A DNA stretch of 12,632 bases from positions 1 to 12,632 of IMG/VR virus record IMGVR_UViG_2778261687_000011; one strand, written 5' to 3'. The DNA comes from a virus. Lineage: Duplodnaviria; Heunggongvirae; Uroviricota; Caudoviricetes. Position numbers and translations under genes: made by a program. Below are positions 1 to 12,632 of the stretch, piece after piece (within the stretch, counting starts at the first letter, position 1; every line of letters starts with the position of its first letter). The notes beneath the pieces were generated by a model. That model had not been told where the DNA came from. It saw only the letters and a list, made by a program, of their open reading frames with translations, and ran no database searches.

Positions 1-546
1 AAGCGTGCGTATTGCCTGAAAACACAACCCGCTACGGGGGAGACTTACCCGAAATCTGATTTATTCAACAAAGCCGACTTCCGTCTGATGTCACGAGAGG
101 TCGTAGAGAATATCAAACAGCTACCCGAAAGAAATCTATTTATGAAGGGGGTTCTTTCGTGGGTTGGCGGAAAAACTGATGTTGTAGAATACGTGCGTGC
201 TGAACGTGTCGCAGGTGATTCTAAATTCAACGGCTGGAAGTTGTGGAACCTAGCACTTGAAGGTATAACAAGTTTCTCCACATTCCCGCTGAGGATGTGG
301 ACATACATTGGATTGTTTGTTGCCGGTCTATCTTTTTTATATGGCGCGTGGATGATTGTAAACACTCTTGCCTTTGGCAACCCAGTTCGTGGTTACCCTT
401 CGCTCCTTGTTTCAATCCTTTTCCTTGGCGGAATACAGTTGATTGGAATCGGTGTGTTAGGTGAATATATCGGCAGAATTTATATTGAAACCAAACAACG
501 TCCAAAATATGTTCTAAAAAATGTCAGGAAAGACAGCAATGACTAA
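1..546 (+). CDS. gtrB: Bactoprenol glucosyltransferase GtrB (GT2 family), 5'-partial; continues upstream of the window
   Basis: Frame 1 is open from base 1. The translation [14 protein letters not shown]...[21 protein letters not shown]...[16 protein letters not shown]...[12 protein letters not shown] closely matches my recollection of the GtrB C-terminal half, including the two C-terminal transmembrane helices. The first ~25 codons match less well than the rest. Confidence 0.88.
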
Positions 547-1957
547 CGATTCTAAAAATTTAGGAATTTTACTGTTTGTTGGTTTTTTATATGTGCTCCC
601 TTTCATTATCGGTGGACATTTATACGTAGATGATTTTTTGCGTATAGAGATACCATATGGATGGGATCATAATGGTAGATATTTTTCAACAGTCCTGTCT
701 AATCTCATTGGCAACGGTCATATTCTAATATTATCTCCATTTACTATGATGATTGCAGCGCTGTTCCTCATTTACCCTGCACACAAAATCAGCAGTGTAT
801 TTTTTGGTAGCGAGTTGAGTTTTGCGAAAGCATCATTTTCTTTATCACTTTTACTATCCCCATTTTTTATAAATAATCTTGCCTATCAGTATGATGCAAT
901 TTTGATGTCCGCATCTGTAGGCATGGCTGCGATGGCAGCGTACTACTGTTATCTCGGAGTTTCTTCAAAGCTCTTTTATGCTACAGCATTCATTCTGCTA
1001 ATACTGGCAATTTCATCTTATCAGTCATCTATTGCAGTATACTTATCAATTATATTGATACTAGCCATACACAGCATGATGTCAGGTAAAGCAACTATTT
1101 TTAGTGCTATTAAGTTTTGCGTCATTGCTGGCGTTCTAATGCTTGTTGCATACGCACTATACAAGAAGGTGATTTTTAACCCCGATGATATGAGTGAGTA
1201 TACAAAGATGCGCTCTGAAATGCTGGGCATTGACATGTATACGTTAAAAAACATGTTCACCTCCTATCTTAAATTCAAGGAAATCTTTTATGATTTATTC
1301 CATGGGTTTATAGGAAAAATTTTACTTTTGTATGTTACGCTTCCTTTTGCTGTGATTTTATTAAAAAAAGGATTAAGCTTGCCTGTAAAATTAACGAGTG
1401 TTGTTTTTTACTTGTTTATTATCTTCCTTTCCTTTGGCATGCTACTGATTCTAAAAAATCCACCAGTGACCAGTCGTTCTATGGTTTCGGGCGGAGTGAT
1501 AATCATGGCATCGACAATGATTATTTTTACTAATATCACCTTTAAAAGGCTTGATTGGGTATCAGTTGTGCCGATGGTAATATCATTTATTTTTGTAAGC
1601 TGTTTCTTCATGCTTCAAAATATAAATTATTCCAGAATTGATAATGTCTTAATGCGTACAAATGCAGTCTTATCGCTGCAAAATAAAGATTACCAGAAAA
1701 TTTATCTAAAAATAAACAAACCCAGTTCAGCATCAGAACCATACAGAAAAGCATTTCCTTTCATATACAATATGAATAGATACTTCTATACTGGCAATCC
1801 TTTCATGGATAAAGTCTCCCATTTAAAACTGGGGTATAGTATCTACCCGTGCGATTCTGGTTGTAAAAAAATAGAATCAGATGGAACTGTGAGATTCAAC
1901 GCTCAAAACATGATATTGAAAGAGCGAAATGGACAAGCAATTGTTATAGTGAACTAA
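539..1957 (+). CDS. GtrC-like type-specific O-antigen glucosyltransferase (polytopic membrane protein)
   Basis: ORF of 472-478 aa starting immediately after gtrB (ATG 539 overlaps the gtrB stop at 544-546, AGGA about 10 nt upstream; alternative in-frame ATG at 521 has no SD). Many hydrophobic segments in the first ~370 aa and a hydrophilic C-terminal domain; AT-rich like gtr loci. Assignment is by operon position and topology, not by recognised sequence motifs. Confidence 0.65.
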
Positions 1958-1964
1958 TTATTTT

Positions 1965-1988
1965 GATGCCAACACTTTTGTTGGCATC
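1965..1988 (+). terminator. Perfect 10-bp hairpin (gatgccaaca-cttt-tgttggcatc) just after the gtrC-like stop; candidate intrinsic terminator or mRNA-stabilising stem-loop
   Basis: Inverted repeat read directly from the sequence; followed by accTTTgc, a weak U tract. Confidence 0.4.
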
Positions 1989-2020
1989 ACCTTTGCAAAC
2001 TCATTAGTGGGCTGATCTAA

Positions 2021-2690
2021 ATGGCAAAAACAGACATTAATAACGGAGTTGTAGTTGCACGTTTTATTGCTATATTGCTGGTAGTTTTACTACATGCCAG
2101 TGCCGGACCTTTCGGGGCTAAACTCGCTCCTGACTGGGAGTGGGCCAATATTTACAGCGCAATATCGAAACAATGCATTGGTATTTTCATTGTCATAACT
2201 GGCTTTCTCTATGCAAATAAAGAAATTGAGTTTAAAGGCTTCATCCTTAAAGGAATAAATCTCCTTGTAATTCCACTGGCGTTTTGGTGGGTAATTTACG
2301 CAGCATATTTGATACTTTTTAAAAATGCAGGCATAGATAGTTTTAGCCCTATGAAACCATCAAGCATACACCTTTGGTTTATGTACGATTACATTGCAAT
2401 TTATCTTTTTGTTCCAATGATAGTTATGGGATGTAGAGAAATAAGAACGCGCTATAGCCTTTTGATATTCGCAGTTCTGTTTTACAGCACATCCTTATAC
2501 CCAGAGCTTAATGCAATAGGAATACCCGCTCCGAAGATAAACGTTCCATTTGCAAGTTATTTAATGCTCTATGTTTTTGCAGGTTACATAGCTGCACGCA
2601 AGGAAGATTTAATAATTAAGTACAGGATTGTATTTGCTCTCCTTTCATTGACACTTTCCGTTGTTACCATTTATGTTAATAAAGGGATAC
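2021..2690 (+). pseudogene. Acyltransferase family 3 (Oac/OafA-like O-antigen acetyltransferase) gene, 3'-truncated at about 2690
   Basis: N-terminal ~224 aa are hydrophobic with acyltransferase-3-like segments (VVARFIAILLVVLLHASAGPFG, IFIVITGFLY, HLWFMYDYIAIYLFVPMIV). At about 2690 composition switches from AT-rich to GC-rich and the rest of ORF 2021..3250 becomes Arg/Pro/Ser-rich nonsense that is the reverse strand of phage genes. Full-length family members are about 330 aa. Confidence 0.6.
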
Positions 2691-3030
2691 CGAATTCAAT
2701 CAGGCGCCAGTGTGGCGTCGGGGCGTTTTCACCGAGATCAGGATGTTTTTTCAGGACTGCACCATGCAGCACGCCGATCCTAAATCCGAGGTTACCGGTG
2801 GTTTTGAAGATGCGGTTGTTCCATCGCATAGCCACGTTTGCGGCAATGCTGCGGCCTGTTAACGGGTCATCAATCCTGGCGGCGTTCGCTTTTGCTTTTT
2901 CGACAATCACGTTACCAGCGCGCCGGAGTGCGGCCCGTCCACCGCGACGACGCAGATCGTCACTGATGGATGATAGTTTCCCCACCAAACTCTCAACTCC
3001 AGTAATGCTGATATCAATGCCGTCAGCCAT
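2671..3030 (-). CDS. HK97 gp10-family tail-completion/head-tail joining protein, C-terminally truncated at the junction
   Basis: Translation contains IDDPLTGRSIAANV...TPHWRLIEFG, typical of the HK97 gp10 family, but ends 5 codons after EFG with residues (IPLLT) encoded by AT-rich non-phage DNA. Family members normally continue about 40-50 aa further. GAGGAG SD upstream of ATG 3030. Confidence 0.65.
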   Translation of the reverse strand: MADGIDISITGVESLVGKLSSISDDLRRRGGRAALRRAGNVIVEKAKANAARIDDPLTGRSIAANVAMRWNNRIFKTTGNLGFRIGVLHGAVLKKHPDLGENAPTPHWRLIEFGIPLLT

Positions 3031-4156: not shown

Positions 4157-5320
4157 TCAGGAGCCAGCAGAAACCGCAATATCGCCAGTGACGATAGCTG
4201 CAGGACGATAGTGCGCCAGCGCCAGGCGTTCTTCGCACAGGATGGTCAGCATGTTTTTAACGAAGTTATCGCGATCCTGGTTGCTGATCTCGATAGTGGC
4301 ATCCATGCGGTCCCACACCTGCGATGCCAGACCAAACGCACCAACGGTAAATTTGCCTGCCGTCTGCGCCGTGGTCGAAACTACCGGCAGACCCCAGAGC
4401 ACTTTGGAGGCAAAGGCCTGTGGGCCGCCAAGGATGTAATTGCCGTTAGCATCTTTCAGCAGCGCGATACGGTGCCAGTCCGCCGGGTTGAGAATGATAC
4501 CGTCGGCTTCAAACTCGCTCAGCGACACCTGATAGATTGCATGCGCCAGAACATCAGCACCGGTATCTCCGGTCGCGTTGAGTGCAGTTTCGTAGTCGTT
4601 CGCCACCACGTTCAGCCCCTGGAGGTTGTCGCCGGTGCCATCACCGTTCAGCATCTGGTTTTCTTCCACCAGCGCCAGGCCATACATCATGCGGGAGTTG
4701 ATGTAGGACTGCAGTGCCGGGGCATCGTCCATGATCTGGCGCGACGCCTGGATCCAGTGAGCGATGGTTTTCACGTTCGCCGTTTCTTTGGTGAAGGTAA
4801 TGTTACTTTCCGGCTTGAGGGTACCTTCCGCCACTGGCGCCGCGGCGTTGGTAAACACATTTTCACGCACGTATTCAAGCGCGTTACTGGTGATGCGCCC
4901 CTGCGCCAGCAGGTCACGTACGGTCAGGCGACGCAGGCCCGGCATAAGGATACCCGGTTGCTGCTGCGGCAGAACCAGTGCGCCGGCGGAGTTCGCGCCA
5001 GAGCCGATCGCTTTGTCGAAGCTGGTCACTTTCGCTTTGGTACGTGAGCCGTCCCAGCCTTTCATCAGGTCTTCGGACACGCGTTCTGCAAAGGATTTCT
5101 GGGCGGTCTGTTCAGGCGAGTTGCCAGCCAGCTTCTGCTCAAGATCGAACAGTCGAGTGCCGGTGGCTTTCAGCTCATCCTGGGCTTTCGCCAGGTCGGT
5201 CTGCAGCTGCTTGTTGATTTCGCCGTTCTGGTTGATGGATTTACGCTGTTCCTCGATAAGCTCCTTCACTTCTTTCTGGGAGTTCTCGATCGCTTTTTCC
5301 AGGGTTGCTAATTCAGACAT
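4157..5320 (-). CDS. Major capsid protein, HK97 family (with N-terminal delta/scaffolding domain)
   Basis: 387 aa; coiled-coil N-terminal ~100 aa followed by a capsid domain, the same size and architecture as HK97 gp5; sits directly after the prohead protease gene; GGAG SD. Confidence 0.92.
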   Translation of the reverse strand: MSELATLEKAIENSQKEVKELIEEQRKSINQNGEINKQLQTDLAKAQDELKATGTRLFDLEQKLAGNSPEQTAQKSFAERVSEDLMKGWDGSRTKAKVTSFDKAIGSGANSAGALVLPQQQPGILMPGLRRLTVRDLLAQGRITSNALEYVRENVFTNAAAPVAEGTLKPESNITFTKETANVKTIAHWIQASRQIMDDAPALQSYINSRMMYGLALVEENQMLNGDGTGDNLQGLNVVANDYETALNATGDTGADVLAHAIYQVSLSEFEADGIILNPADWHRIALLKDANGNYILGGPQAFASKVLWGLPVVSTTAQTAGKFTVGAFGLASQVWDRMDATIEISNQDRDNFVKNMLTILCEERLALAHYRPAAIVTGDIAVSAGS

Positions 5321-5331
5321 GTTTTGCTCCG

Positions 5332-6012
5332 TTAGGGATTCCGCAGGTTAGCGGCAAAGGAAGTTATGCGCTGTGCCAGCGCGTCAATGTCGCCGCCGCC
5401 GAACTCGCTTCGGCCTGCGGACTTCACGCGGGCGATAAACGCCTGCGCTTCAGCACGCGTAAGGCCGACTGAATCCCTCAGCCAGGCCTCCGCGTCACGA
5501 ATGGTTTTAATGCCGTCAATGCTCTTCATGGCGGTTACGCCCGCCAGTTCGTTGGCCGGGAATGTGCAGACACTGATTTCCCGCAGATAAGTAATGTTTT
5601 TGAAAATGAGGCCGGACGTGCCGACGGTGTAATCGTCAGGGCCGACTGAAAAACCCACCGACATGCCTTCAACCGTGCCATGCTGCATGGCGGCCTTCAG
5701 ATCCTCGGCCAGGCTCAATCTGGGTGTGAGCTGCCCTCGGACATAAAGCCCCTTCTCGTCTTCGTGCATGGCATCCCATTTGCCAACCGGGATGGCTCGC
5801 GTCTGGTGGTTGAAGAACATCGCCACCTTGCGGCTCTGGTTAGCCACCACACCAGCGAAAGCCCCGGGCAAAATAATGTCGCCGTCGGCGTCGGTGTTAT
5901 TGAAAACCGAGGCATACCCTTCAAACGTTCCCTTGCTGCCGTCGCCGGTGAACTTGATTTCGGTCTGGTCGAACGCCAGCGTCTTGTGAATATCAGGCAT
6001 CGTGGCCCCCAT
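5332..6012 (-). CDS. Prohead maturation protease, HK97 family (peptidase U35/S78)
   Basis: 226 aa, between portal and capsid genes; sequence ADGDIILPGAF...GLYVRGQL...FSVGF is typical of HK97-type prohead proteases. An alternative ATG at 5998-6000 (M5) has a better SD. Confidence 0.9.
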   Translation of the reverse strand: MGATMPDIHKTLAFDQTEIKFTGDGSKGTFEGYASVFNNTDADGDIILPGAFAGVVANQSRKVAMFFNHQTRAIPVGKWDAMHEDEKGLYVRGQLTPRLSLAEDLKAAMQHGTVEGMSVGFSVGPDDYTVGTSGLIFKNITYLREISVCTFPANELAGVTAMKSIDGIKTIRDAEAWLRDSVGLTRAEAQAFIARVKSAGRSEFGGGDIDALAQRITSFAANLRNP

Positions 6013-6039
6013 AAAAATTAAGCCCCGTCATTGCGGGGC
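6011..6039 (-). terminator. Terminator-like hairpin (GCCCCG-CAAUGA-CGGGGC) plus UUAAUUUUU at the portal/protease boundary; possible attenuator
   Basis: Read from the sequence; the stem encodes the last portal codons and the U tract runs into the protease start. Confidence 0.25.
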
Positions 6040-7289
6040 TCTTTGTTTGTTCCGAGGTCGGTAATGGGAACGTTCTGCGACTGGCGCGTCGCCACATCAC
6101 CGCCAGGCAAAGGCGGAAGATTATCCAGTCGCCGCACTTCGTTAACGGTACGGATCCCTGTATTAACCATGGTTTGCATGAAGGTAGCGCGGCTCGCTGA
6201 GTCACCACGAAGCAGGCCATCAAGGTTATGCTCGGCGTGCAGCCTTCCCTGATCGGACTCTTTTACCAGCCAGCGCTCTATGCTGTACTCCCAGCGATCG
6301 AGATAGGGCTTCAGGGTGTACTGGAGAAAGCCGAGGTTCTGCTGTTCAATGCCGCTGCCCCATGAAGTTGTTTTTTCAACATCACCAACCAGGTGCGGCG
6401 GAACACCGTAAAAGCGCGCCAGCTCTGCCACCTGAAACTTACGGGCCTCAAGCATCTGTGCGTCCTGCGGCGAGATGCCTATCGGCTGCGTGGTGAACCC
6501 GCTCTCAATGATCCAGAGGCGTTTTCTCACCGGGCCGCCGGCAATCTCCTTAAAGTTTTCCTCCAGCTGTCCGCGCTGCTCTTTGGTCAGCACCTTGCCG
6601 TCAGTCATCAGGATTTGCGGTGATTTGGCGCCGTTGGCGAAAAACTCCCGCTGGTTATCTTCCATAGCAATAGCCACGCCTGCAGATTTGGCGCTGAACG
6701 CCAGCGGCGATAACCCGACCAGCCCGTTAAAGCCGAAGCCTTTCAGGTGGAATATTTCTTTCGGCTTAAAGTCCACATACTCGCTGTCGCGCCGGTACCG
6801 GTAGATGACATTTTTTCCATCGAGCCGGACATCCATATTCGCGCTCATCAGCGGAAGCAGGCTGATGACATCGCCGACGCTGTTTCGCTCCACATGCGCG
6901 TAGGCATTGCCGTAGGCGCAAAGCTGCATTGTCATTGCCTCGCGAAACTCCAGCGCGGTCATGAAGTTGTTGGGCCGGAAGCGAAGAAGCTTCGCCAGCG
7001 GGTTCTGGTTGTCGACTTTCTTTCGCTGATCATCGATGGTTTCAAAAACATCCAGCGGTAACGAGGCTGTTACGGTGGAGATGAGCCGGATGCAGGCCCA
7101 TACGGTGCTGATCGACATGTTGCGCTCATCGCTCACCACCGATTCCCCGACGGTGCCGTGAGCTGATGTGCCCGCCATCTGCGAGCCATTATCCGGTGAA
7201 ACCAGGCGGCCACCGGTCAGAATAGAGGCCATGCGCGCCCAGAATGGCGATCGCGTTCGCAGGTCAATGCTGTAATCGGTATCTGCCAT
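6018..7289 (-). CDS. Portal protein, HK97 family
   Basis: 423 aa, immediately downstream of TerL and upstream of the protease; size and position match the HK97 portal family. Confidence 0.9.
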   Translation of the reverse strand: MADTDYSIDLRTRSPFWARMASILTGGRLVSPDNGSQMAGTSAHGTVGESVVSDERNMSISTVWACIRLISTVTASLPLDVFETIDDQRKKVDNQNPLAKLLRFRPNNFMTALEFREAMTMQLCAYGNAYAHVERNSVGDVISLLPLMSANMDVRLDGKNVIYRYRRDSEYVDFKPKEIFHLKGFGFNGLVGLSPLAFSAKSAGVAIAMEDNQREFFANGAKSPQILMTDGKVLTKEQRGQLEENFKEIAGGPVRKRLWIIESGFTTQPIGISPQDAQMLEARKFQVAELARFYGVPPHLVGDVEKTTSWGSGIEQQNLGFLQYTLKPYLDRWEYSIERWLVKESDQGRLHAEHNLDGLLRGDSASRATFMQTMVNTGIRTVNEVRRLDNLPPLPGGDVATRQSQNVPITDLGTNKEPRNDGA

Positions 7290-7291
7290 TT

Positions 7292-8824
7292 TTAAACGCT
7301 CAAAAAGTTGTAAATGAAATCGTTAACGTCGCCCGGATCCTCCACCTCATCACTGGTCTGTGCGCCGATAGACATCGCCAGCGCCACCATGCCGTCGATA
7401 CGGCCGCTCGATTTGCCTTTCACAAACTTGCGGTTACCGGCGGGGTCGGTGATTACCGTGGCGTTTTTGGCGCACATCTCGAGGATCGGATGGTTGCCGT
7501 GCTTCAGTTGCGCGCCGAGCAGTTTAGCTTCCAGCTCCCTGAGCGCAGGCGACATGGAGACAAAACCCTGGCCGAATTCCACGAACCGCTCGAGCTCCGC
7601 CTCAGTGAAACCGGCGTCGATGAGATGCGGGCGAAGGAAGCGCATGTTGTAGCGGTCGAACGCCAGCGCCCGGACGTTACAGATATCAAAAACGCGCCGC
7701 AGCTCCCGTGCAATAAAGGCGTACTCAATGGCTTTGCCCGGCGTCGTGTTCAGCCAGCCCTGCTTCGCCCATATGTCATAAGGCACGCGATCGTTACGCG
7801 CCTTGTCCGCCAGCCCCTCTTCAGGTAGCCAGAACTTACAGTGCACATCGCCCTGCGTTGTGTTGAGCACCAGCGCGGTCAGGTCCGACACGCTGGAAAG
7901 GTCCAGCCCGCCCCAGACGGTAGCGCCCGCCAGTTCGCCAGGCTCTTCTTTGTTCATGTGCCAGACGGTCTGGCTGACGAACGGGCTTTTCGCCTCAACC
8001 CTGCGGTTCAGTACAAGGTTCTCAAATTCAGCCTGGCGCGACGGGAGGCGCTTGGCGCTGGCGGCCATATCCAGCACTTCTTTCTGGTTCATGAACACAT
8101 CGAAGGCCGGGTTAGCCAGCCTGATGGCTTCGACAGAGAAAGGATCGATATCTTCCGGCGCGGTCTGCAGCCGTACCACCGTTCGCGGATCGGCACCGGT
8201 CAGGCCATCATCAATCAGCAGGCTGAGCAGGTCGCTCGCATCGGGTGCCTGGGTGCTGATGATTACCGAGATAGGGTTGTCCTGAGCAGCGGTCGCGGTT
8301 TCCAGAGCTTCATAAAGCGGGTCACGCGGCCCGCGCACCTGGCCCAGCTCATCATGGGCGACAAATCGCGGCGAGAAACCGTAGGCCGTTGTGGCCTCAG
8401 CGCTCAACGCGCGATAGTAAGAGCCCAGTTCAGGGCAGTGAATCTCTTTGGCTGAATCTTTTATGGCAACGTATTGCATCAGTGTCGGATTCATACGACA
8501 CATTTTCGAAGCAAGGTTAAACAGAATTGCTGCCTGATCGCGTGATCGGGCTGCGGAATACAATTGTGAGTTAGGCGCTGATTCGGGACCAACCAGATAA
8601 AGCAGCATGATTATCGCTGTCTCTACCGTCTTGGCGTTCTTTCGCCCCCTGCTGATAATCGCGCGGCGAGTACCATGCTCATTATCAAATATTGCTCTGA
8701 AGTCATCCTTCATGAAAGGAGCCATCTTCAGAGGCTGGCCTACGTACTTCCCTTCAGGGATCAGGATGTGTTTCTCACACCAGGCTATATTGCGCTCAGC
8801 CCTTGTAAGCTTTTTTTTCGCCAT
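7292..8824 (-). CDS. Terminase large subunit
   Basis: 510 aa; Walker A-like SRGRKNAKT near the N-terminus, Walker B-like FVAHDELG, C-terminal nuclease-like region; follows the TerS gene after a 13-nt gap. Confidence 0.92.
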   Translation of the reverse strand: MAKKKLTRAERNIAWCEKHILIPEGKYVGQPLKMAPFMKDDFRAIFDNEHGTRRAIISRGRKNAKTVETAIIMLLYLVGPESAPNSQLYSAARSRDQAAILFNLASKMCRMNPTLMQYVAIKDSAKEIHCPELGSYYRALSAEATTAYGFSPRFVAHDELGQVRGPRDPLYEALETATAAQDNPISVIISTQAPDASDLLSLLIDDGLTGADPRTVVRLQTAPEDIDPFSVEAIRLANPAFDVFMNQKEVLDMAASAKRLPSRQAEFENLVLNRRVEAKSPFVSQTVWHMNKEEPGELAGATVWGGLDLSSVSDLTALVLNTTQGDVHCKFWLPEEGLADKARNDRVPYDIWAKQGWLNTTPGKAIEYAFIARELRRVFDICNVRALAFDRYNMRFLRPHLIDAGFTEAELERFVEFGQGFVSMSPALRELEAKLLGAQLKHGNHPILEMCAKNATVITDPAGNRKFVKGKSSGRIDGMVALAMSIGAQTSDEVEDPGDVNDFIYNFLSV

Positions 8825-8837
8825 TCGCTAATCAGCC

Positions 8838-9272
8838 TTAATCAATTTCCCAGGGCTTTTTCTCCCGAGCCAGATTGCTGTTGGCCCGGCCAACAGTTTT
8901 GGGATCGGCAGTAGCCTGGCGGGTAATCCGCAGGCGGGTCGCAAGAGAAGATGCCGATCGCACCTCGCGCTCGCGCATCGTGAGCAGCCTGTCGTAGCGC
9001 TTCAGCCCGTCTTCGCGGGACAACCACTCGAGCTCAAACTCTTCAATCTGGGTGGTGAGCAGCCGGGCCTGCACCACATGCCGACAGTACATCTCCAGCA
9101 TGTCCCGGTGTGTTTCGGTGAATGAGCTGGCCGGGTTGTCATTAACCAGCCGGACCCAGACGTTAATCTCCGGATCGCTCAGGTGAATGGACGGCTGCAA
9201 CCTGCTTTCAGCCAGTGCCGGCAGCGAGACAGCAGACGTCGCAGCCAGAGACTTTCTGCCTCGCTGTGCCAT
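8838..9272 (-). CDS. Terminase small subunit (probably P27/HK97-like family)
   Basis: ATG at 9270-9272 (aa 45 of the longer TTG-initiated ORF 8838..9404) preceded by AAGGA. Basic N-terminus MAQRGRKS; position directly upstream of TerL and downstream of HNH. The family name is an inference. Confidence 0.72.
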   Translation of the reverse strand: MAQRGRKSLAATSAVSLPALAESRLQPSIHLSDPEINVWVRLVNDNPASSFTETHRDMLEMYCRHVVQARLLTTQIEEFELEWLSREDGLKRYDRLLTMREREVRSASSLATRLRITRQATADPKTVGRANSNLAREKKPWEID

Positions 9273-9404
9273 CGCGTTTTTCCTTTTTTTCTGGACGTTT
9301 TTAAAAATAAAACTGGGAGCGCGGTCTTTAAGAATTTGGTACCAGAGTTTTACCCCTCCCCCTCCCTTACCAACATAAATATGAGAATTGATATCATTTC
9401 TCAA

Positions 9405-9614
9405 TTACGTGTAAGCTTGAGTGAGGTATGCCAGAGGGCACCAGACGATCACCAACGCCGATTGGCAATGTGAGGGTAATGGTAGGGTAATGGTAGGCAG
9501 CATCTCACCGACCTCATGATTGAAGGAGACTGCAGTGGCATGTTTAAAGCTCACGCTATCAATGCTCAACTCAATCAACTTCCCATCACGGTATTCAATC
9601 TTCATGTCTTGCAT
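9405..9614 (-). CDS. Hypothetical small protein between HNH and terS genes (may instead be non-coding cos region)
   Basis: ATG preceded by AGGAG that overlaps the HNH stop (translational-coupling geometry); the N-terminal ~40 aa look natural, but the C-terminal part reads through an 11-bp tandem repeat. Confidence 0.35.
   Translation of the reverse strand: MQDMKIEYRDGKLIELSIDSVSFKHATAVSFNHEVGEMLPTITLPLPSHCQSALVIVWCPLAYLTQAYT
9473..9497. repeat. Tandem direct repeat, about 2.3 copies of the 11-mer agggtaatggt, in the HNH-terS interval
   Basis: Read directly: agggtaatggt agggtaatggt agg. Coordinates may be off by 1. Confidence 0.55.
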
Positions 9615-9626
9615 CAACTACTCCTG

Positions 9627-9917
9627 TTACCAGATAACACGGCCTTCATTATCGAACTCGGTGACCGTTCCGCCCTTCTCCATCCTCTGCTTTACCGAGT
9701 CGTGGCAACGTTTGCAAAGTGACTGAAGATTATCCGGATCATGAAAGAGCCTATCGTCTCCTTTGTGCGGGATGACATGGTCAACGATCGTTGCCGCTAT
9801 CACCTGATTGCGCCGGAGGTGGAACTCACAAAGAGGTTGCTTCTGAAGCTGGTGATAGCGGAGTCGGTACCAACGCTTGGAATTGTAGAGGCTATGCCAA
9901 GGTGAATTGGATGCCAT
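9627..9917 (-). CDS. HNH endonuclease (terminase-associated)
   Basis: 96 aa with Cys/His pairs (CEFH...DHVIPH...CKRCH) typical of phage HNH proteins; lies upstream of terS as in HK97-like cos phages; GAGGGAG SD. Confidence 0.88.
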   Translation of the reverse strand: MASNSPWHSLYNSKRWYRLRYHQLQKQPLCEFHLRRNQVIAATIVDHVIPHKGDDRLFHDPDNLQSLCKRCHDSVKQRMEKGGTVTEFDNEGRVIW

Positions 9918-9994
9918 GGTTAATCTCCCTCTGCATTGCTAAATCGCCAATTCCGGCTAACGGCGTGCCCAGGCTCACAGCTGAAAGACTTTCT

Positions 9995-10024
9995 TTGAAG
10001 TGCGCGTGAGATGCGCTTTATACT
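9995..10024 (+). promoter_or_regulatory. Candidate sigma70 promoter (TTGAAG, 18-nt spacer, TATACT) for the moron gene
   Basis: Hexamers read from the sequence about 95 nt upstream of ATG 10120 in the divergent intergenic region. Not validated. Confidence 0.3.
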
Positions 10025-10119
10025 CCAGCAATAGCCGCCAGCAATGCCAGTAAGTATCAAATTACAAAATTATCTTTGTTCATTTTGTTGAGTGACACCT
10101 CAAAAAGGAGGCATGGGAA

Positions 10120-10653
10120 ATGAGTCTGGAAAAATTGCTAATCAAAGATAGAAAATGTGGTTCATGTTCTGTTTGTTGTAAATCCCTGAGAATCGAAGAG
10201 CCAGAGCTTAAAAAATTTGCTGGAGTGCCATGTCAGCATCTTAAAGCACAGGGCGGATGTTCGATTTATAATGATCGCCCATCTCTATGTCGTACGTGGT
10301 ACTGCGGATGGAGAGTTTTAGGTATCGGTCCGGAAATGAGGCCTGATCGTTGTGGTGTTCTTATTCGCTTCGATGGCAAAGCTCTGTGCTTTCAGCCAGT
10401 AAATGATGGTCAAGTTACTACATTGCTTGATCCAGAGCCTTTACGTGTTTTAAGCAGTTCAATTGCAAATGGGATGACCGTTCAGATTTCGATTCCGACA
10501 AAAGAAGGCTTTTGCTCTTCAAATGTCGACGTTACAGCAGCTATGACCGAGGTAGTTAAAACCAGAGAGTTTGATAAGATTCGTGCAACTATGATTGGAT
10601 TAATTCAATTCGCTGCGAATTCGAAGACAGACCCGATTGCTCCTTTAAATTAG
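10120..10653 (+). CDS. YkgJ/UPF0153-family cysteine-cluster protein (CxxCxxCC putative zinc/iron-chelating domain); moron
   Basis: 177 aa with N-terminal CGSCSVCC then C..H...GGCSIYNDRP..C....C, matching the CxxCxxCC domain family that includes flagellin lysine-N-methylase FliB. Strong SD AAGGAGG 9 nt upstream. Lower GC than the flanking phage genes and opposite orientation to the late operon. Confidence 0.75.
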   Translation: MSLEKLLIKDRKCGSCSVCCKSLRIEEPELKKFAGVPCQHLKAQGGCSIYNDRPSLCRTWYCGWRVLGIGPEMRPDRCGVLIRFDGKALCFQPVNDGQVTTLLDPEPLRVLSSSIANGMTVQISIPTKEGFCSSNVDVTAAMTEVVKTREFDKIRATMIGLIQFAANSKTDPIAPLN

Positions 10654-10661
10654 CATCCGAT

Positions 10662-10679
10662 GCCGGGGTTGCACCCGGC
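10662..10679 (+). terminator. Weak terminator-like hairpin (gccggg-gttgca-cccggc) after the moron gene
   Basis: 6-bp GC stem 9 nt after the stop codon; the following tract TTAACAAAC is only weakly U-rich. Confidence 0.25.
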
Positions 10680-11047
10680 TTAACAAACGAGAAACATACG
10701 AATCGGTTGCAAATCTCAAGCAGCTCTTGTCTTTTAACATTAGACGATCGTTTCATTAGCATTTCATCTGATGTACTGAATAAGTTTTTCATAAAACATT
10801 CCCATTCTAATTATCTAGGCTGCATTTAAATGCCTCACCACTTCCCGGAGTGGCCACGCTCATGCCCTTGAGTTGCTGTCGCTTCATCGCCGCTTATAAC
10901 CGGTGCGCGTCTGGCGTTCGCGCTGCTCTACCGGAGCTTATTTTGATATAAGAACCTTGACCCGTCGCTATACAGGCTCGCTCAATGGCGACTCAGGGCA
11001 GCATCATTACTGCTGCATTGCCTTTCGGCTGCGGTCTAACCGCTTTG

Positions 11048-11278
11048 CTACTTGATTTCGAGTTTCTCCTTCTGACAATTTGCCTGCCACGCTTTGTTAT
11101 GCGTCAGGATGTCGCGCTTGGTCTGCTTATCCAACACATCCCAGTCATTATCTGTTGCATAGATAGGATGAACCCAGTCGCACGCCGTATCGACTACCTC
11201 AACCCTTACGGGTCCAGTTTGTGCGCAGCTCGCGATCAACGTCGTCGCCAGGCATATGATTAACTTTCTGCTGTACAT
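11048..11278 (-). CDS. Outer-membrane spanin (Rz1-like lipoprotein, o-spanin), overlapped architecture
   Basis: Internal ATG at 11276-11278 of ORF 11048..11449 gives MYSRKLIICLATTLIASC..., a signal peptide with lipobox LIASC, followed by a short periplasmic domain with extra Cys. Starts inside the i-spanin gene in another frame and extends beyond it. Confidence 0.6.
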   Translation of the reverse strand: MYSRKLIICLATTLIASCAQTGPVRVEVVDTACDWVHPIYATDNDWDVLDKQTKRDILTHNKAWQANCQKEKLEIK

Positions 11279-11471
11279 TACTGGCCTCTCTGGTGACTTC
11301 TGCCTGACGTTCTGCCACTGCAACCTTCGCCGCTGCGTTTTCTTCAGTGCGTTGTTGATCGGCTTTCGCTTCTGCTTTGCTGGTTCCGCGAATATGGCCA
11401 AGACCAAACCCACCAGCAGCGGCAACACAGATAGCACCAATGACACCAATGATGATTTCTACAATGCTCAT
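11199..11471 (-). CDS. Inner-membrane spanin (Rz-like, i-spanin)
   Basis: 90 aa with one N-terminal transmembrane helix (IVEIIIGVIGAICVAAAGG) then a charged Ala/Glu/Gln-rich coiled-coil-like region; start overlaps the endolysin stop (ATGA); contains the o-spanin start. Confidence 0.6.
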   Translation of the reverse strand: MSIVEIIIGVIGAICVAAAGGFGLGHIRGTSKAEAKADQQRTEENAAAKVAVAERQAEVTREASNVQQKVNHMPGDDVDRELRTNWTRKG

Positions 11472-11998
11472 GCAATCACCGCTTTCGCTTTGCCGTAACG
11501 CACGCGTCTGTCGTTAATGCCGTTCTGACCGCCATTGATAATCTGAGTGATGCGCACCAGGTCATCGGTGTACTTCAGGCAACCTTTGGAGGCGTAGAAC
11601 CATGCAGCAGAACGCGCAGCATTGATGTCTTTCTCCAGCAGTTCAGGGTTAGTAACCAGGTCAAGCTTCAGACCATTGCCGCAATCACGGTAATTGGTGA
11701 GACCGGTAATCTGAATTAATCCGCGCCCACGGTATTTCCAGCCATCACCAGCAGCTTTATTACCCAGGCGGTTGCTGTATACCAGGTTCGCGATAGCTTC
11801 CTGACTTGCTGGCTTACCGTTGGCACGTCCAAGCATTAAGGCCTGGTAGTTCGTTACCCGGCGTCCAAACGTCGTCAGTAATGCGGCAGGCGTGTAGTTG
11901 AAGTTCTCCACCAGCGCAGAGAATCCCGCCGATTCATGTCCTACCTGAGCAATGAACATCGCCTTATCTTTTGGTTCAGTGATGCCGAACTCTTTCAT
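11468..11998 (-). CDS. Endolysin, glycoside hydrolase family 19 (chitinase-like), missing about 25-30 N-terminal residues
   Basis: FIAQVGHESAGF...GDGWKYRGRGLIQITGLTNYR...ITQIINGGQNGINDRR are GH19 endolysin motifs. The frame stays open and homologous-looking upstream of M1 for about 15 codons, then hits a stop at about 12044 with no start codon. No holin gene upstream. Confidence 0.85.
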   Translation of the reverse strand: MKEFGITEPKDKAMFIAQVGHESAGFSALVENFNYTPAALLTTFGRRVTNYQALMLGRANGKPASQEAIANLVYSNRLGNKAAGDGWKYRGRGLIQITGLTNYRDCGNGLKLDLVTNPELLEKDINAARSAAWFYASKGCLKYTDDLVRITQIINGGQNGINDRRVRYGKAKAVIA

Positions 11999-12032
11999 TG
12001 CATCCGTACAGGCTAACCATGAGCATAGTTCG

Positions 12033-12632
12033 ATGTCACGCGTTTACAGGTGGGGATATCAACGTGGATTTGTGCCAGGCAACCCATGCGTAGGCGTCGA
12101 TAAATACCCTAAACCTCAGCGCGACCGATACATTACGGATGAAGAGTATTTAGCAATTTATGACTGTGCTACTGATCCGGTAAAAGCCGCAATGGAAATT
12201 GCTTATCTCTGTGCAGCGAGGGTTTCCGATGTTCTGAAAATGGACTGGAATCAGATAATGGATAAAGGAATTTTCATTCAACAGGGTAAAACTGGAGTTA
12301 AGCAGATTAAAGCGTGGACAGACCGCTTGCACTCCGCTGTCAATCTTTGCAGGAAATCAGGGGAAGATGGCGCTGTCATCAAAACCATGTACGGAGAGCG
12401 ATATTCCTATAAAGGTTTCAATGAAGCCTGGAGAAAGGCTAGGAATGCGGCTGCTGAAAAAATTGGCAGACCGTTAGACTGCACGTTCCATGATCTGAAG
12501 GCGAAAGGCATTTCTGACTATGAAGGAAGTGGCCGTGATAAGCAAAAATTCAGTGGTCACAAAACTGAATCACAGGTGTTGGTATACGACAGGAAAGTAA
12601 AAATTAGCCCAACTTTAAACAGAAAAATGTGA
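12033..12632 (+). pseudogene. Lambda-family tyrosine integrase, C-terminal catalytic domain only (5'-truncated)
   Basis: Catalytic-domain motifs ARVSD (Arg-I), QQGKTG (Lys), TFHDLK (His), GHKTESQ...LVYDR (His, Tyr) with spacing parallel to lambda Int; the N-terminal arm-binding and core-binding domains are absent. The preceding part of ORF 11952..12632 is the reverse strand of the endolysin 5' end. Stop codon at the window end. Confidence 0.75.

What the first reader, a model, noticed from the sequence alone, without database searches (positions are those of the whole stretch)
9995..10680. Low-GC moron encoding a CxxCxxCC cysteine-cluster protein at the bor-equivalent position
Seen in sequence: a 177-aa ORF with the CxxCxxCC signature, strong SD, candidate promoter and downstream hairpin, transcribed opposite to the late operon and lower in GC than its neighbours. 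Established knowledge: the Rz-to-cos interval is a classic moron site (bor in lambda), and the CxxCxxCC/YkgJ family includes flagellin lysine methylase FliB, but most members are uncharacterised. Inference: a lysogenic-conversion or accessory gene of unknown function.
Basis: partly seen in the sequence, partly recalled or inferred. Interest (0 to 1): 0.5.

Follow-up and report, generated by a model that had tools for sequence, protein, structure and literature searches.

The report
Prophage cysteine-cluster gene with small partner
The flagged ORF is a real, widely spread prophage accessory gene ("moron") for a cytoplasmic eight-cysteine metal-cluster protein of unknown function. It travels with an overlooked small gene on the opposite strand, in a layout that resembles prophage defence genes carrying their own antidote.

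Summary
Window 10120-10653 (+) encodes a 177-aa protein with CxxCxxCC (C13/16/19/20) and four more invariant cysteines. It has a strong SD, GC 0.42 against 0.51-0.57 for the neighbours, and lies opposite the late operon between Rz/Rz1 and HNH-terS. The Pfam CxxCxxCC match is significant but 0.5 bit below the gathering score. NCBI already names this exact protein "YkgJ family cysteine cluster protein" (188 contigs, mostly Enterobacter and Citrobacter).

In about 60 related loci the gene sits between the lysis and packaging modules of prophages with unrelated head types, so the moron reading is supported.

New points:
- A conserved 58-67-aa gene (window 10589-10792, minus strand, invariant S/T-D-x-x-L-M) converges on the ORF and overlaps its 3' end. 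It accompanies only this cargo.
In relatives it is a covarying terminator.
- Relatives carry a portable promoter motif (CTG-N6-YATCAGGRT, then 21-22 nt, then a -10). That motif also precedes RexAB, kinases and more than 40 other cargoes. It is degenerate in this window.
- A high-confidence model (pLDDT 96.8) has no solved structural relative.

Function is untested. My best guess is an Fe-S protein expressed in the lysogen, possibly defence with a late-expressed antidote.

The parts
9958..10020 (.). 60-nt junction element at the left edge of the cassette. In other phages it lies upstream of a minus-strand tail-tip-like plus glycosyltransferase operon.
   Evidence: 90-93% identical copies occur in HK639, mEp390, FSL SP-016, Aeromonas AsXd-1 and Fostie, none of which has the CxxC gene. 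It occurs in many related loci, sometimes twice. It shows no stable RNA fold (z = +1.2).
9995..10024 (+).
   Evidence: 9 of 12 positions match, and site density is not above shuffles. The TATACT hexamer exists only in the window lineage (window, L018, L019). Other lineages with the same 60-nt element have no -10 at this place.
10043..10090 (+). Degenerate counterpart of the promoter/operator conserved across the family (CTG-N6-YATCAGGRT, then 21-22 nt, then TAnnnT). Here it reads GCCAGTAAGTATCAAATT ... TTTTGT.
   Evidence: The motif is present at the same distance from the ATG in lineages that share only 40-70% protein identity. The window version matches about 9 of 18 positions (my own count by eye against the L089-type copy).
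10105..10111 (+). Shine-Dalgarno AAGGAGG, 8 nt before the ATG.
10120..10653 (+). 177-aa cytoplasmic eight-cysteine protein of the YkgJ/CxxCxxCC superfamily. The N-terminal Cys domain is about residues 11-65. The C-terminal alpha/beta domain is about residues 74-177.
   Evidence: Family matches: (PHROG 9155, E = 1.4e-16). Homologues. Structure: AlphaFold pLDDT 96.8, pTM 0.91, with no solved relative. Public name.
10662..10679 (+). GC-rich hairpin 9 nt after the stop codon, the probable terminator of the CxxC transcript. It has lost its T tract in this lineage.
   Evidence: Relatives have covarying stems and T runs at the same offset.
10589..10792 (-). Conserved small partner gene, 67 aa (MKNLFSTSDEMLMK...). 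It converges on the CxxC ORF and overlaps its last 65 nt. It lies on the late-operon strand.
   Evidence: The S/T-D-x-x-L-M motif is invariant. Ser codons switch between the TCN and AGY families, and Leu codons between CTN and TTR. It is present in 51 of 64 loci by strict pattern, and variant forms occur in more. Public pipelines call it as a gene (P0179, P0178). It is absent from 103 of 104 hotspots that carry other cargo. It has no Pfam or PHROG family.
10829..11045 (-). 215-nt conserved non-coding element between the Rz1 stop and the small gene. It marks the right edge of the cassette. Whether it belongs to the cassette is unclear.
   Evidence: 80-94% identical in 113 E. coli genomes and in many lambdoid phages, with nothing annotated there. 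Indels are not multiples of three, and one hairpin shows a compensatory change. No Rfam match.

Best explanation
This is a two-gene prophage accessory cassette (a moron), inserted between the lysis cassette and the HNH/cos/terminase module.

The large gene (10120-10653, + strand) encodes a soluble cytoplasmic protein. Its N-terminal domain holds eight invariant cysteines in the YkgJ/CxxCxxCC arrangement. By analogy with FliB it most likely binds an oxygen-sensitive [4Fe-4S] cluster, possibly with a second metal site. A family-specific C-terminal alpha/beta domain probably binds the target.

The gene forms its own transcription unit: promoter, strong SD, then a terminator hairpin. It runs against the late operon, so it can be made in the lysogen. 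When Q-dependent late transcription reads through it in antisense on the way to the terminase and head genes, its expression should be shut down.

The small gene (10589-10792, - strand) lies on the late strand and would be made only during lytic growth.

The most likely role is a lysogen-expressed protective or exclusion function, with the small late protein as its counter-agent or partner. This matches the architecture of TERi, Tab, Tai and Tha-Ith.

Shown: gene reality, motif, conservation, position, composition, cassette linkage, and the promoter motif shared with known defence cargo in relatives.

Inferred: the metal identity, expression timing, any defence role, and any interaction between the two proteins.

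Sub-confidences:
- Autonomous moron encoding a YkgJ-superfamily metal-cluster protein: about 0.85.
- Fe-S rather than Zn: about 0.6.
- Expressed mainly in the lysogen: about 0.55.
- Defence with the small protein as self-immunity: about 0.3.
For: Reality and family of the ORF:
- ORF, motif and SD.
- Eight cysteines plus P75 invariant, and R74, D76 and G130 nearly invariant, in 111 homologues.
- Pfam E = 1.9e-4 and PHROG 9155.
- The YkgJ hallmark motif aligns.
- FliB's N-terminal Cys motif binds a [4Fe-4S] cluster (PMC8598068).
- Confident two-domain model.

Moron status:
- The gene always lies between lysis and packaging genes, across HK97-type, lambda Nu1/gpA-type and P22/Mu-F-type heads.
- Window 9966-11408 is 94% identical to loci whose head genes share only 27-35% protein identity.
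- GC 0.42 against 0.51-0.57 for the neighbours.
- A covarying terminator follows the gene in relatives.

Partner gene:
- Codon-level evidence for coding.
- Co-occurrence with the CxxC gene.
- Specific to this cargo, present in 1 of 104 hotspots with other cargo.
- In one lineage its start overlaps the upstream late gene and has a strong SD.

Link to lysogen-expressed defence:
- The promoter motif upstream of CxxC in relatives also precedes rexA-rexB in the same phage, L042.
- The motif heads more than 40 alternating cargoes at one hotspot, including a PD-T4-6-like kinase and a HipA-like kinase.
- Precedent: prophage hotspots with a conserved promoter and alternating defence cargo, and counter-defence genes on the opposite, lytic strand (bioRxiv 10.1101/2025.02.27.640495).
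Against: - No PADLOC, NCBIfam or PDB match for either protein, so nothing ties them directly to defence.
- In this window the family promoter motif is degenerate and the terminator lacks its T tract. The prophage here is a remnant without Q, holin or early genes, so the proposed lysogen/lytic switch cannot operate in this copy.
- One natural variant keeps the small gene after losing CxxC, so the small gene is not strictly dependent on it.
- Cys-domain relatives occur in strictly lytic cyanomyoviruses, and co-oriented inside a structural operon in L092.
- The kinase cargoes are single instances of a 15-base pattern that could arise by chance in a large collection.
- FliB's cysteine spacing differs, and its catalytic region has no counterpart here.
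Confidence: 0.4

Rival explanations
1. Lysogenic-conversion enzyme with no defence role. The Fe-S protein modifies a host molecule (protein, RNA or metabolite) in the lysogen, as FliB methylates flagellin. The small convergent gene is an unrelated late gene, linked only because the 0.8-kb block is rarely split by recombination.
For: - Homology to the family that contains the [4Fe-4S] enzyme FliB.
- Classic conversion-gene position and composition.
- A deletion variant keeps the small gene without CxxC.
- No defence-database hit.
Against: - Apart from G130, the C-terminal domain has no nearly invariant residues, so no obvious catalytic site.
- It has no similarity to FliB's catalytic part and no SAM-binding or other enzyme fold.
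- The small gene accompanies only this cargo across lineages that have diverged to 40% (CxxC) and about 20% (small) identity. Passive linkage is hard to sustain that long in mosaic phages.
Confidence: 0.25
2. Lytic-cycle auxiliary factor. The protein is needed by the phage itself, for example for a redox- or metal-dependent step in replication, packaging or lysis timing. It would be switched on by a phage regulator that binds the conserved palindrome, not expressed in the lysogen.
For: - Cys-domain homologues occur in lytic T4-like cyanophages.
- A homologue sits co-oriented between portal and protease in L092.
- The palindromic CTG-N9-CAG element next to a poor -35 suggests regulator dependence.
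Against: - The gene is dispensable. It is absent from close relatives with the same flanks, deleted in L110 and frameshifted in L044.
- It is antisense to the late operon, which must read through it.
- It is independent of head and terminase type.
- The same promoter motif drives rexAB, a classic lysogen-expressed operon.
Confidence: 0.12
3. Zinc-binding, non-enzymatic protein. The eight cysteines form two Zn(Cys)4 sites that stabilise a small adaptor or nucleic-acid-binding module, acting for example as a regulator or inhibitor rather than as a redox or radical Fe-S protein.
For: - Pfam describes the domain as 'zinc- or iron-chelating'.
- Three family members carry a C-terminal SEC-C zinc motif.
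- Conserved basic residues (R11, K32, R53, R74) surround the Cys domain.
- The conserved residues are concentrated in the Cys domain.
Against: The only biochemically studied relative, FliB, contains iron and a [4Fe-4S] cluster and no other metal. The CC doublet and the C-x-IY-x-x-RP-x-x-CR signature are not typical zinc-ribbon knuckles (my own knowledge).
Confidence: 0.1
4. In this particular window the cassette is an inert relic. The ORF is intact only because it arrived recently, and it is not expressed.
For: - The prophage is a remnant. The integrase fragment abuts a 5'-truncated endolysin, there are no Q, holin or early genes, and the head module is fused to low-GC gtr-like genes at about 2670-2700.
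- The family promoter motif is degenerate and the terminator has lost its T run.
Against: - The identical protein is on 188 contigs in several genera and in intact prophages with different heads.
- The strong SD is retained, and a lineage-specific TTGAAG-18-TATACT sits upstream.
Confidence: 0.13

Closest known systems
E. coli YkgJ / Pfam PF03692 (CxxCxxCC, 'putative zinc- or iron-chelating domain', UPF0153/COG0727)
   Same: It shares the N-terminal CxxCxxCC motif and the second signature C-x-I-Y-x-x-R-(P/S)-x-x-C-R, with about eight cysteines. The HMM match has E = 1.9e-4. hhalign aligns the second signature with YkgJ. NCBI applies the family name to this exact protein.
   Different: The score is 0.5 bit under the gathering cut-off, and only 32 of 111 subfamily members match at E <= 0.01. 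The protein is 177 aa against 109 aa for YkgJ, and it carries an extra, confidently folded C-terminal alpha/beta domain. It is prophage-borne. YkgJ itself has no known function.
FliB, flagellin lysine N-methyltransferase of Salmonella (PMC8598068)
   Same: Both have an N-terminal cysteine motif ending in CC and eight conserved cysteines. Both are cytoplasmic. FliB shows that this type of motif binds an oxygen-sensitive [4Fe-4S] cluster.
   Different: FliB's motif is CX4CX3CC. From my own knowledge FliB is a much larger protein (about 400 aa) encoded next to fliC; neither point was checked here. No similarity outside the Cys motif was found.
Lambda bor (the classic moron between Rz and cos)
   Same: Same position and orientation: between the lysis genes and the packaging end, opposite to the late operon.
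   Different: Bor is an outer-membrane lipoprotein. This protein has no signal peptide or lipobox (read directly from the sequence) and no Lambda_Bor Pfam match. The equivalence is positional only.
Prophage defence systems with cognate self-immunity on the opposite strand (TERi of Listeria phage phi10403S; Tab, Tai, Tha-Ith, BstA-aba as cited there; bioRxiv 10.1101/2025.02.27.640495, PMC8585504)
   Same: One gene has its own promoter on the strand opposite to a lytic operon, and an overlapping or adjacent small gene lies on the lytic strand. In relatives the promoter is conserved while the downstream cargo alternates at a fixed hotspot.
   Different: There is no sequence similarity. Different hosts. 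TERi sits in the early module, whereas this cassette sits in the late module. Neither defence nor counter-defence activity has been shown here, and PADLOC finds nothing.
PHROG 9155 (unknown function)
   Same: Best phage-family match, E = 1.4e-16 over residues 9-84.
   Different: The match covers only the Cys domain, and the family has no annotation.

Membership tests
Pfam PF03692 / YkgJ family | N-terminal CxxCxxCC motif | tested here: met
   C13-x2-C16-x2-C19-C20, invariant in 111 homologues.
Pfam PF03692 / YkgJ family | Second signature C-x-I-Y-x-x-R-P-x-x-C-R downstream | tested here: met
   C47-S-I-Y-N-D-R-P-S-L-C57-R. hhalign aligns it with E. coli YkgJ residues 69-85, with 61% probability on a single-sequence template.
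Pfam PF03692 / YkgJ family | HMM score at or above the curated gathering threshold | tested here: not met
   22.5 bits against 23.0, E = 1.9e-4. 32 of 111 relatives match at E <= 0.01, best 7.1e-5. No NCBIfam model matches.
Pfam PF03692 / YkgJ family | Binds iron (Fe-S) or zinc | not testable with these tools
   Only an analogy with FliB.
FliB flagellin lysine methyltransferase | CX4CX3CC spacing of the cluster-binding motif | tested here: not met
   The spacing here is CX2CX2CC (compared).
FliB flagellin lysine methyltransferase | Large catalytic region beyond the Cys motif and linkage to flagellin genes | tested here: not met
   The protein is 177 aa, its neighbours are phage lysis and packaging genes, and no methyltransferase fold or family was found. 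FliB's own size and gene linkage are from my knowledge and were not checked.
Moron (autonomous extra gene in a phage operon; concept as I recall it from the HK97/HK022 comparative work, not looked up here) | Present in some and absent from other closely related phages at the same junction | tested here: met
   The flanking 60-nt and 215-nt elements and Rz occur in E. coli phages and genomes without the gene. L110 is a deletion derivative. A 1.2-1.4-kb block is shared between phages with different heads.
Moron (autonomous extra gene in a phage operon; concept as I recall it from the HK97/HK022 comparative work, not looked up here) | Own promoter and terminator | tested here: inconclusive
   Relatives have a conserved promoter-like motif with a -10 and a covarying hairpin with a T run. 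In the window both are degenerate, and the alternative promoter is a weak consensus match. No expression data.
Moron (autonomous extra gene in a phage operon; concept as I recall it from the HK97/HK022 comparative work, not looked up here) | Base composition different from the surrounding genes | tested here: met
   GC 0.419 and GC3 0.32, against 0.51-0.57 and 0.43-0.68 for the neighbours.
Lambda Bor | Lipoprotein signal peptide and Bor family sequence | tested here: not met
   The N-terminus MSLEKLLIKDRKCGSC has no signal peptide or lipobox, and there is no Bor Pfam hit.
Prophage defence with opposite-strand self-immunity (TERi/Tab/Tai/Tha-Ith type) | Defence gene on the strand opposite to a lytic operon, with its own promoter, and a partner gene on the lytic strand | tested here: met
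   The layout was checked at sequence level only. The layout is as described.
Prophage defence with opposite-strand self-immunity (TERi/Tab/Tai/Tha-Ith type) | Conserved promoter with alternating cargo at a fixed hotspot | tested here: inconclusive
   True for relatives: 104 contigs share an exact 18-mer, mostly between two glycosyltransferase genes, with 41 cargo clusters including RexAB. The window copy lies outside that hotspot and has a degenerate motif.
Prophage defence with opposite-strand self-immunity (TERi/Tab/Tai/Tha-Ith type) | Protects against phage, and the partner neutralises it on induction | not testable with these tools
   PADLOC gave no hit for CxxC and only a chance-level hit for the small protein (E = 8e-4 to a methyltransferase model).
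PD-(D/E)XK / splicing-endonuclease-like nucleases (raised by weak fold hits) | Significant fold match and conserved acidic/lysine catalytic motif | tested here: not met

The most novel reading that the evidence does not exclude
The 177-aa YkgJ-type Fe-S protein is a previously unrecognised prophage defence (superinfection-exclusion or abortive-infection) effector. The S/T-D-x-x-L-M small protein encoded on the late strand is its cognate self-immunity factor, made only when the prophage itself goes lytic. The pair is one of dozens of interchangeable cargoes served by a portable, regulator-dependent promoter (CTG-N6-YATCAGGRT, then about 22 nt, then a -10). That promoter defines a defence hotspot between the lysis and packaging genes of enterobacterial HK97-like prophages.
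Probability: 0.25. Interest if true: 0.75.

Novelty: new member of a known kind. Interest (0 to 1): 0.45.

Why it matters
In itself this is one more uncharacterised moron, and NCBI already labels it as a YkgJ-family protein. It matters for four reasons.

1. The YkgJ/CxxCxxCC superfamily is large: 6,781 cluster representatives match the profile. It has no solved structure and only one studied member. This subfamily gives a compact, confidently modelled two-domain protein that would suit biochemistry.

2. Its constant pairing with a small late-strand gene matches the architecture recently described for prophage defence systems with self-immunity. That makes a specific hypothesis testable with simple cloning and phage-challenge experiments.

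3. The promoter motif found upstream of its relatives marks a hotspot of alternating cargo that includes RexAB and defence-type kinases. It could serve as a search handle for new lysogen-expressed genes in Klebsiella, Enterobacter and Citrobacter prophages.

4. The identical allele is on 188 contigs, mostly from Enterobacter hormaechei/cloacae and Citrobacter. From my own knowledge these genera include clinically important strains.

Tried and rejected
Searches that found nothing:
- NCBIfam and PADLOC for the CxxC protein.
- A profile search of PDB sequences.
- BFVD: only uncharacterised cyanophage proteins.
- Rfam over 9300-11500.
- Megablast of the ORF against E. coli genomes and isolated phages: only the flanks match.
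- tblastn of the small protein against isolated phages.
- Literature searches for CxxCxxCC, and for YkgJ with prophage: nothing relevant.

Ideas considered and dropped:
- The C-terminal domain as a PD-(D/E)XK nuclease. The fold scores are weak and there is no catalytic motif.
- The small ORF as an artefact of CxxC's coding constraint. Its conserved core lies outside the overlap, and its codons show synonymous and serine-family switches.
- The small ORF as part of the glycosyltransferase operon rather than the CxxC cassette. It is present in only 1 of 104 hotspots with other cargo.
- L110 as an ancestral empty site. It retains the last 20 nt of the CxxC ORF.
- The upstream palindrome as a LexA, FNR, CRP, Cra or IHF site. 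This was compared from memory only. Its spacing (CTG-N9-CAG, or CTGAT-N5-ATCAG) fits none of them.
- The 60-nt element as a structured RNA (z = +1.2).
Full report
**1. The observation**

The window is the late region of a lambdoid, HK97-like prophage read on the minus strand:
- GH19 endolysin, 11468-11998
- Rz/Rz1 spanins, 11048-11471
- HNH endonuclease, 9627-9917
- terS 8838-9404, terL 7292-8824, portal 6018-7289, protease 5332-6012, major capsid 4157-5320

The flagged ORF is the only sizeable plus-strand gene in this stretch. It runs 10120-10653 and encodes 177 aa, with AAGGAGG 8 nt before the ATG. The peptide K-C-G-S-C-S-V-C-C gives CxxCxxCC at C13, C16, C19 and C20.

GC is 0.419 (GC3 0.32), against 0.51-0.57 (GC3 0.43-0.68) for the neighbours.

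It is only a 9-of-12 match, in a region where such matches are no more frequent than in shuffles.

The hairpin at 10662-10679 is real (-14 kcal/mol) but has no T tract.

The two regulatory signals are weak on their own.

**2. Family**

- Pfam gives PF03692 (CxxCxxCC) at E = 1.9e-4 and 22.5 bits, against a cut-off of 23.
- PHROG 9155, of unknown function, matches at 1.4e-16.
- NCBIfam and PADLOC give nothing.
- A word-indexed search found only 25 clusters, named "YkgJ family cysteine cluster protein" in Citrobacter, Rahnella and Enterobacter.
- An exhaustive profile search found 6,781 representatives at E <= 1e-3. Of these, 138 score E <= 1e-30, and the listed top matches cover most of the profile length.

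In 111 sequences that are 25-70% identical, C13, C16, C19, C20, C38, C47, C57, C62 and P75 are invariant. R11, G14, K32, Y50, R53, P54, W64, R74, D76 and G130 are nearly so. The stretch C47-SIYNDRPSL-C57-R is the second hallmark of YkgJ proteins and aligns with E. coli YkgJ.

The exact window protein is in NCBI as [quoted passage not shown]. It is on 188 contigs, mainly Enterobacter hormaechei/cloacae and Citrobacter.

The only characterised relative is FliB. It binds an oxygen-sensitive [4Fe-4S] cluster through its N-terminal CX4CX3CC motif and also has eight conserved cysteines (PMC8598068).

Nearly all conserved residues lie in the Cys domain and the R74-P75-D76 linker. The C-terminal domain is conserved in structure but variable in sequence. 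That fits a binding or scaffold domain better than a catalytic one (inference).

**3. Context: a moron**

Gene-called contigs and IMG/VR loci show the same picture again and again. A lysis cassette lies on one side and a packaging module on the other. The gene runs on the opposite strand.

This holds whether the packaging and head genes are:
- HK97-type (TerL PF03354 with HNH),
- lambda-type (Nu1/gpA), or
- P22/Mu-F-type.

Window 9966-11408 is 94% identical to L018 and L019, where the detectable head and packaging proteins (L018) are only 27-35% identical to the window's and L019 carries a different, lambda-type module. E. coli phages and 113 E. coli genomes share the flanking non-coding pieces (window 9958-10020 and 10829-11045) but not the gene.

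L004 is a remnant next to a transposase. L044 carries a frameshifted copy. No core-genome locus was seen among the enterobacterial relatives. More distant full-length homologues in Burkholderiaceae, Ramlibacter and Dyella lie in island-like contexts, one of them next to a TIR-domain gene.

The equivalence to bor is positional only, because the protein has no signal peptide.

**4. An overlooked partner gene**

On the minus strand, 10589-10792 encodes 67 aa (MKNLFSTSDEMLMK...). It converges on the CxxC ORF and overlaps its last 65 nt.

Equivalent ORFs of 58-67 aa follow the CxxC gene in other lineages. They are only about 20-25% identical, yet they keep an invariant S/T-D-x-x-L-M and a downstream aromatic-x-F/W-K motif.

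The codons argue for selection at the protein level. Ser is TCA, TCT, AGC or AGT. Leu is CTA, TTA, TTG, CTC or CTG. Asp is GAT or GAC. The conserved core lies outside the overlap, so CxxC's reading frame does not impose it.

A strict pattern finds the small ORF in 51 of 64 loci with a full-length homologue. Variant forms (SDKNSM, SDQQRM) occur in four more. Most of the remaining loci are the distant non-enterobacterial ones.

Public pipelines call it as a gene (P0179 in 267 index blocks; P0178 in Klebsiella). It has no Pfam or PHROG family.

One Kosakonia prophage (L110) has the small gene without CxxC. It still holds the last 20 nt of the CxxC ORF, so it is a deletion derivative and not an empty site.

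Conversely, of 104 loci that carry other cargo behind the same promoter (section 5), only one has the small gene, and that one is the locus whose cargo is CxxC. The small gene therefore belongs to the CxxC cassette.

In one lineage its start overlaps the stop of the upstream late gene and has a strong SD. It is evidently expressed as part of the late operon.

In relatives, a hairpin 5-12 nt after the CxxC stop has different but complementary stems and a T run. Stem examples are GTCGGGTG/CACCCGGC, GAGTCGGAG/CTCCGACTC, AAGTCGGGGA/TCCCCGACTT and CCAAGCATCT/AGATGCTTGG. That makes it a plus-strand intrinsic terminator for CxxC. The window copy has lost the T run.

**5. Promoter**

Its conservation is therefore unrelated to CxxC. 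Only the window lineage has TATACT at that place.

What divergent CxxC lineages do share, about 50-120 nt upstream of the ATG, is CTG-N6-YATCAGGRT, followed 21-22 nt later by TATTGT, TAAAGT or TAAAAT. This is a -10 with a poor -35 and a partly palindromic element (CTGAT-N5-ATCAG in the best copies) centred near -45. I read it as a regulator-dependent promoter (inference).

The same motif precedes rexA-rexB in the very phage (L042) that also uses it for CxxC. RexA scores 1.4e-57 in Pfam and 9.5e-107 in PADLOC.

The exact 18-mer CTGTCTGAATATCAGGGT occurs in 104 IMG/VR contigs. Fewer than about three would be expected by chance for any plausible collection size (my own estimate). Most copies lie at one hotspot between two late-strand glycosyltransferase genes (PHROGs 1579 and 854), where CxxC sits in lineages L038-L047, L089 and L111.

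Together with a looser 15-base pattern, the motif heads 41 clusters of cargo:
- an 85-aa coiled-coil-like protein (31 copies)
- DUF1883
- an aspartyl-protease-like protein
- a HipA_2 kinase (PDC-M66A)
- a PD-T4-6-like Ser/Thr kinase
- RexAB

The single-copy cargoes found with the 15-base pattern could be chance hits.

In the window lineage this motif is degenerate: about 9 of 18 positions, with TTTTGT in place of the -10. If the gene is expressed here, it is from the lineage-specific junction promoter.

**6. How it most likely works**

Shown: it is an autonomous two-gene cassette.

Inferred from lambdoid biology: there is a single Q-antiterminated late transcript. To reach HNH, the terminase and the head genes, that transcript must cross the cassette. 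It would translate the small gene and run antisense through CxxC. CxxC can therefore be made in the lysogen and is opposed during lytic growth, while the small protein appears only then.

This is the layout reported for TERi, Tab, Tai and Tha-Ith. There a defence gene is transcribed from its own promoter against a lytic operon that encodes the antidote, and the TERi promoter is conserved while its cargo alternates (bioRxiv 10.1101/2025.02.27.640495; BstA in PMC8585504).

I therefore rank a lysogen-expressed Fe-S protein with a protective or exclusion role, and a late-expressed partner, as the single most likely reading. The defence step has a probability of only about 0.3.

The rivals are:
- a FliB-like host-modifying conversion enzyme whose small neighbour is merely linked;
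- a lytic-cycle auxiliary factor, because Cys-domain relatives occur in lytic cyanophages and inside a structural operon;
- a zinc-binding adaptor.

**7. State of this copy**

The prophage in the window is defective:
- An integrase fragment (12078-12632) abuts an endolysin that lacks its first ~24 codons.
- A near-identical contig (L020) has 2.6 kb more at that point.
- No Q, holin or early genes are present.
- At about 2670-2700 the head-tail genes are fused to low-GC (0.37) gtr-like O-antigen-modification genes.

The lysogen/lytic logic above therefore applies to the intact relatives (for example L093 and L098), not necessarily to this copy.

**8. Verdict**

The gene is already labelled in public databases, its function is unknown, and it counts as a new member of a known kind.

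What this stage adds is the partner gene, the terminator, the portable promoter and hotspot, a confident model with no solved structural relative, and a concrete testable hypothesis.

Noticed in passing
related loci L038-L047, L089, L099, L042 and L114-L217; degenerate counterpart at window 10043-10090: A portable moron promoter: CTG-N6-YATCAGGRT, then 21-22 nt, then TAnnnT, often followed by ATTCAGCCCGTCAGTGGTGG. The exact 18-mer is in 104 viral contigs, mostly between two late-strand glycosyltransferase genes. It precedes 41 clusters of unrelated cargo, including RexAB, a PD-T4-6-like kinase, a HipA_2 kinase, DUF1883 and an aspartyl-protease-like protein. The protein that binds the palindrome is unknown.
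   Followed up: partly
window 10829-11045: A 215-nt GC-rich (0.56) non-coding element just downstream of Rz1. It is 80-94% identical in 113 E. coli genomes and in many lambdoid phages (mEp213 twice, once upstream of a second N gene; vB_EcoS-733R5; Stx2c phages; Hafnia yong1; Klebsiella RothC), with nothing annotated there. Indels are not in threes. The hairpin GCAGCA/TGCTGC shows a compensatory change in one phage. No Rfam hit. It may be a cis-acting late-transcript element or a non-coding RNA.
   Followed up: partly
window 9958-10020: A 60-nt element conserved at 83-96% in many HK97-like phages, including an Aeromonas phage. It normally lies about 50 nt upstream of a minus-strand tail-tip-like (PF09327) plus 485-aa glycosyltransferase operon, and it is sometimes present twice per phage. 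Here that operon is missing and the element abuts HNH. It looks like a recurrent recombination junction.
   Followed up: partly
window 1-2700: A low-GC (0.32-0.39) block of O-antigen-modification-type genes: a GtrB-like C-terminus at 88-546, a 478-aa multi-pass membrane protein at 521-1957, and an acyltransferase-like ORF from 2021. The composition jumps at about 2670-2700, where the acyltransferase reading frame runs on into the antisense of the phage head-tail genes. This looks like a deletion or fusion junction.
   Followed up: no
window 11952-12632, and L020:6518-9131: An integrase fragment (Pfam Phage_integrase over residues 60-214 of the ORF) directly abuts a 5'-truncated endolysin. A 99.97% identical IMG/VR contig has an extra 2.6 kb here, including a longer endolysin start and a holin-like gene. 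The prophage is a remnant without Q, immunity or replication genes.
   Followed up: partly
window 9405-9617 (- strand): A 70-aa ORF between HNH and terS matches PHROGs 24041 and 10282 (unknown function, E = 2e-18). It recurs at the same place in related HK97-like loci, near the expected cos region.
   Followed up: no
L094:9060-11691: In one prophage carrying the identical CxxC allele, the region after the cassette holds a tail-spike-like gene (Peptidase_S74), a small resolvase/HTH_7 gene and a flagellin gene (Flagellin_N/C). This is a curious neighbour, given that FliB is the only studied relative of the family.
   Followed up: no
L013:8660-9139: A distant full-length homologue in a Ramlibacter MAG lies next to a TIR-domain gene (TIR_2 2.5e-18, ThsB_TIR 4.9e-8) and a DUF6998 gene. 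This suggests a defence-island context outside prophages.
   Followed up: no
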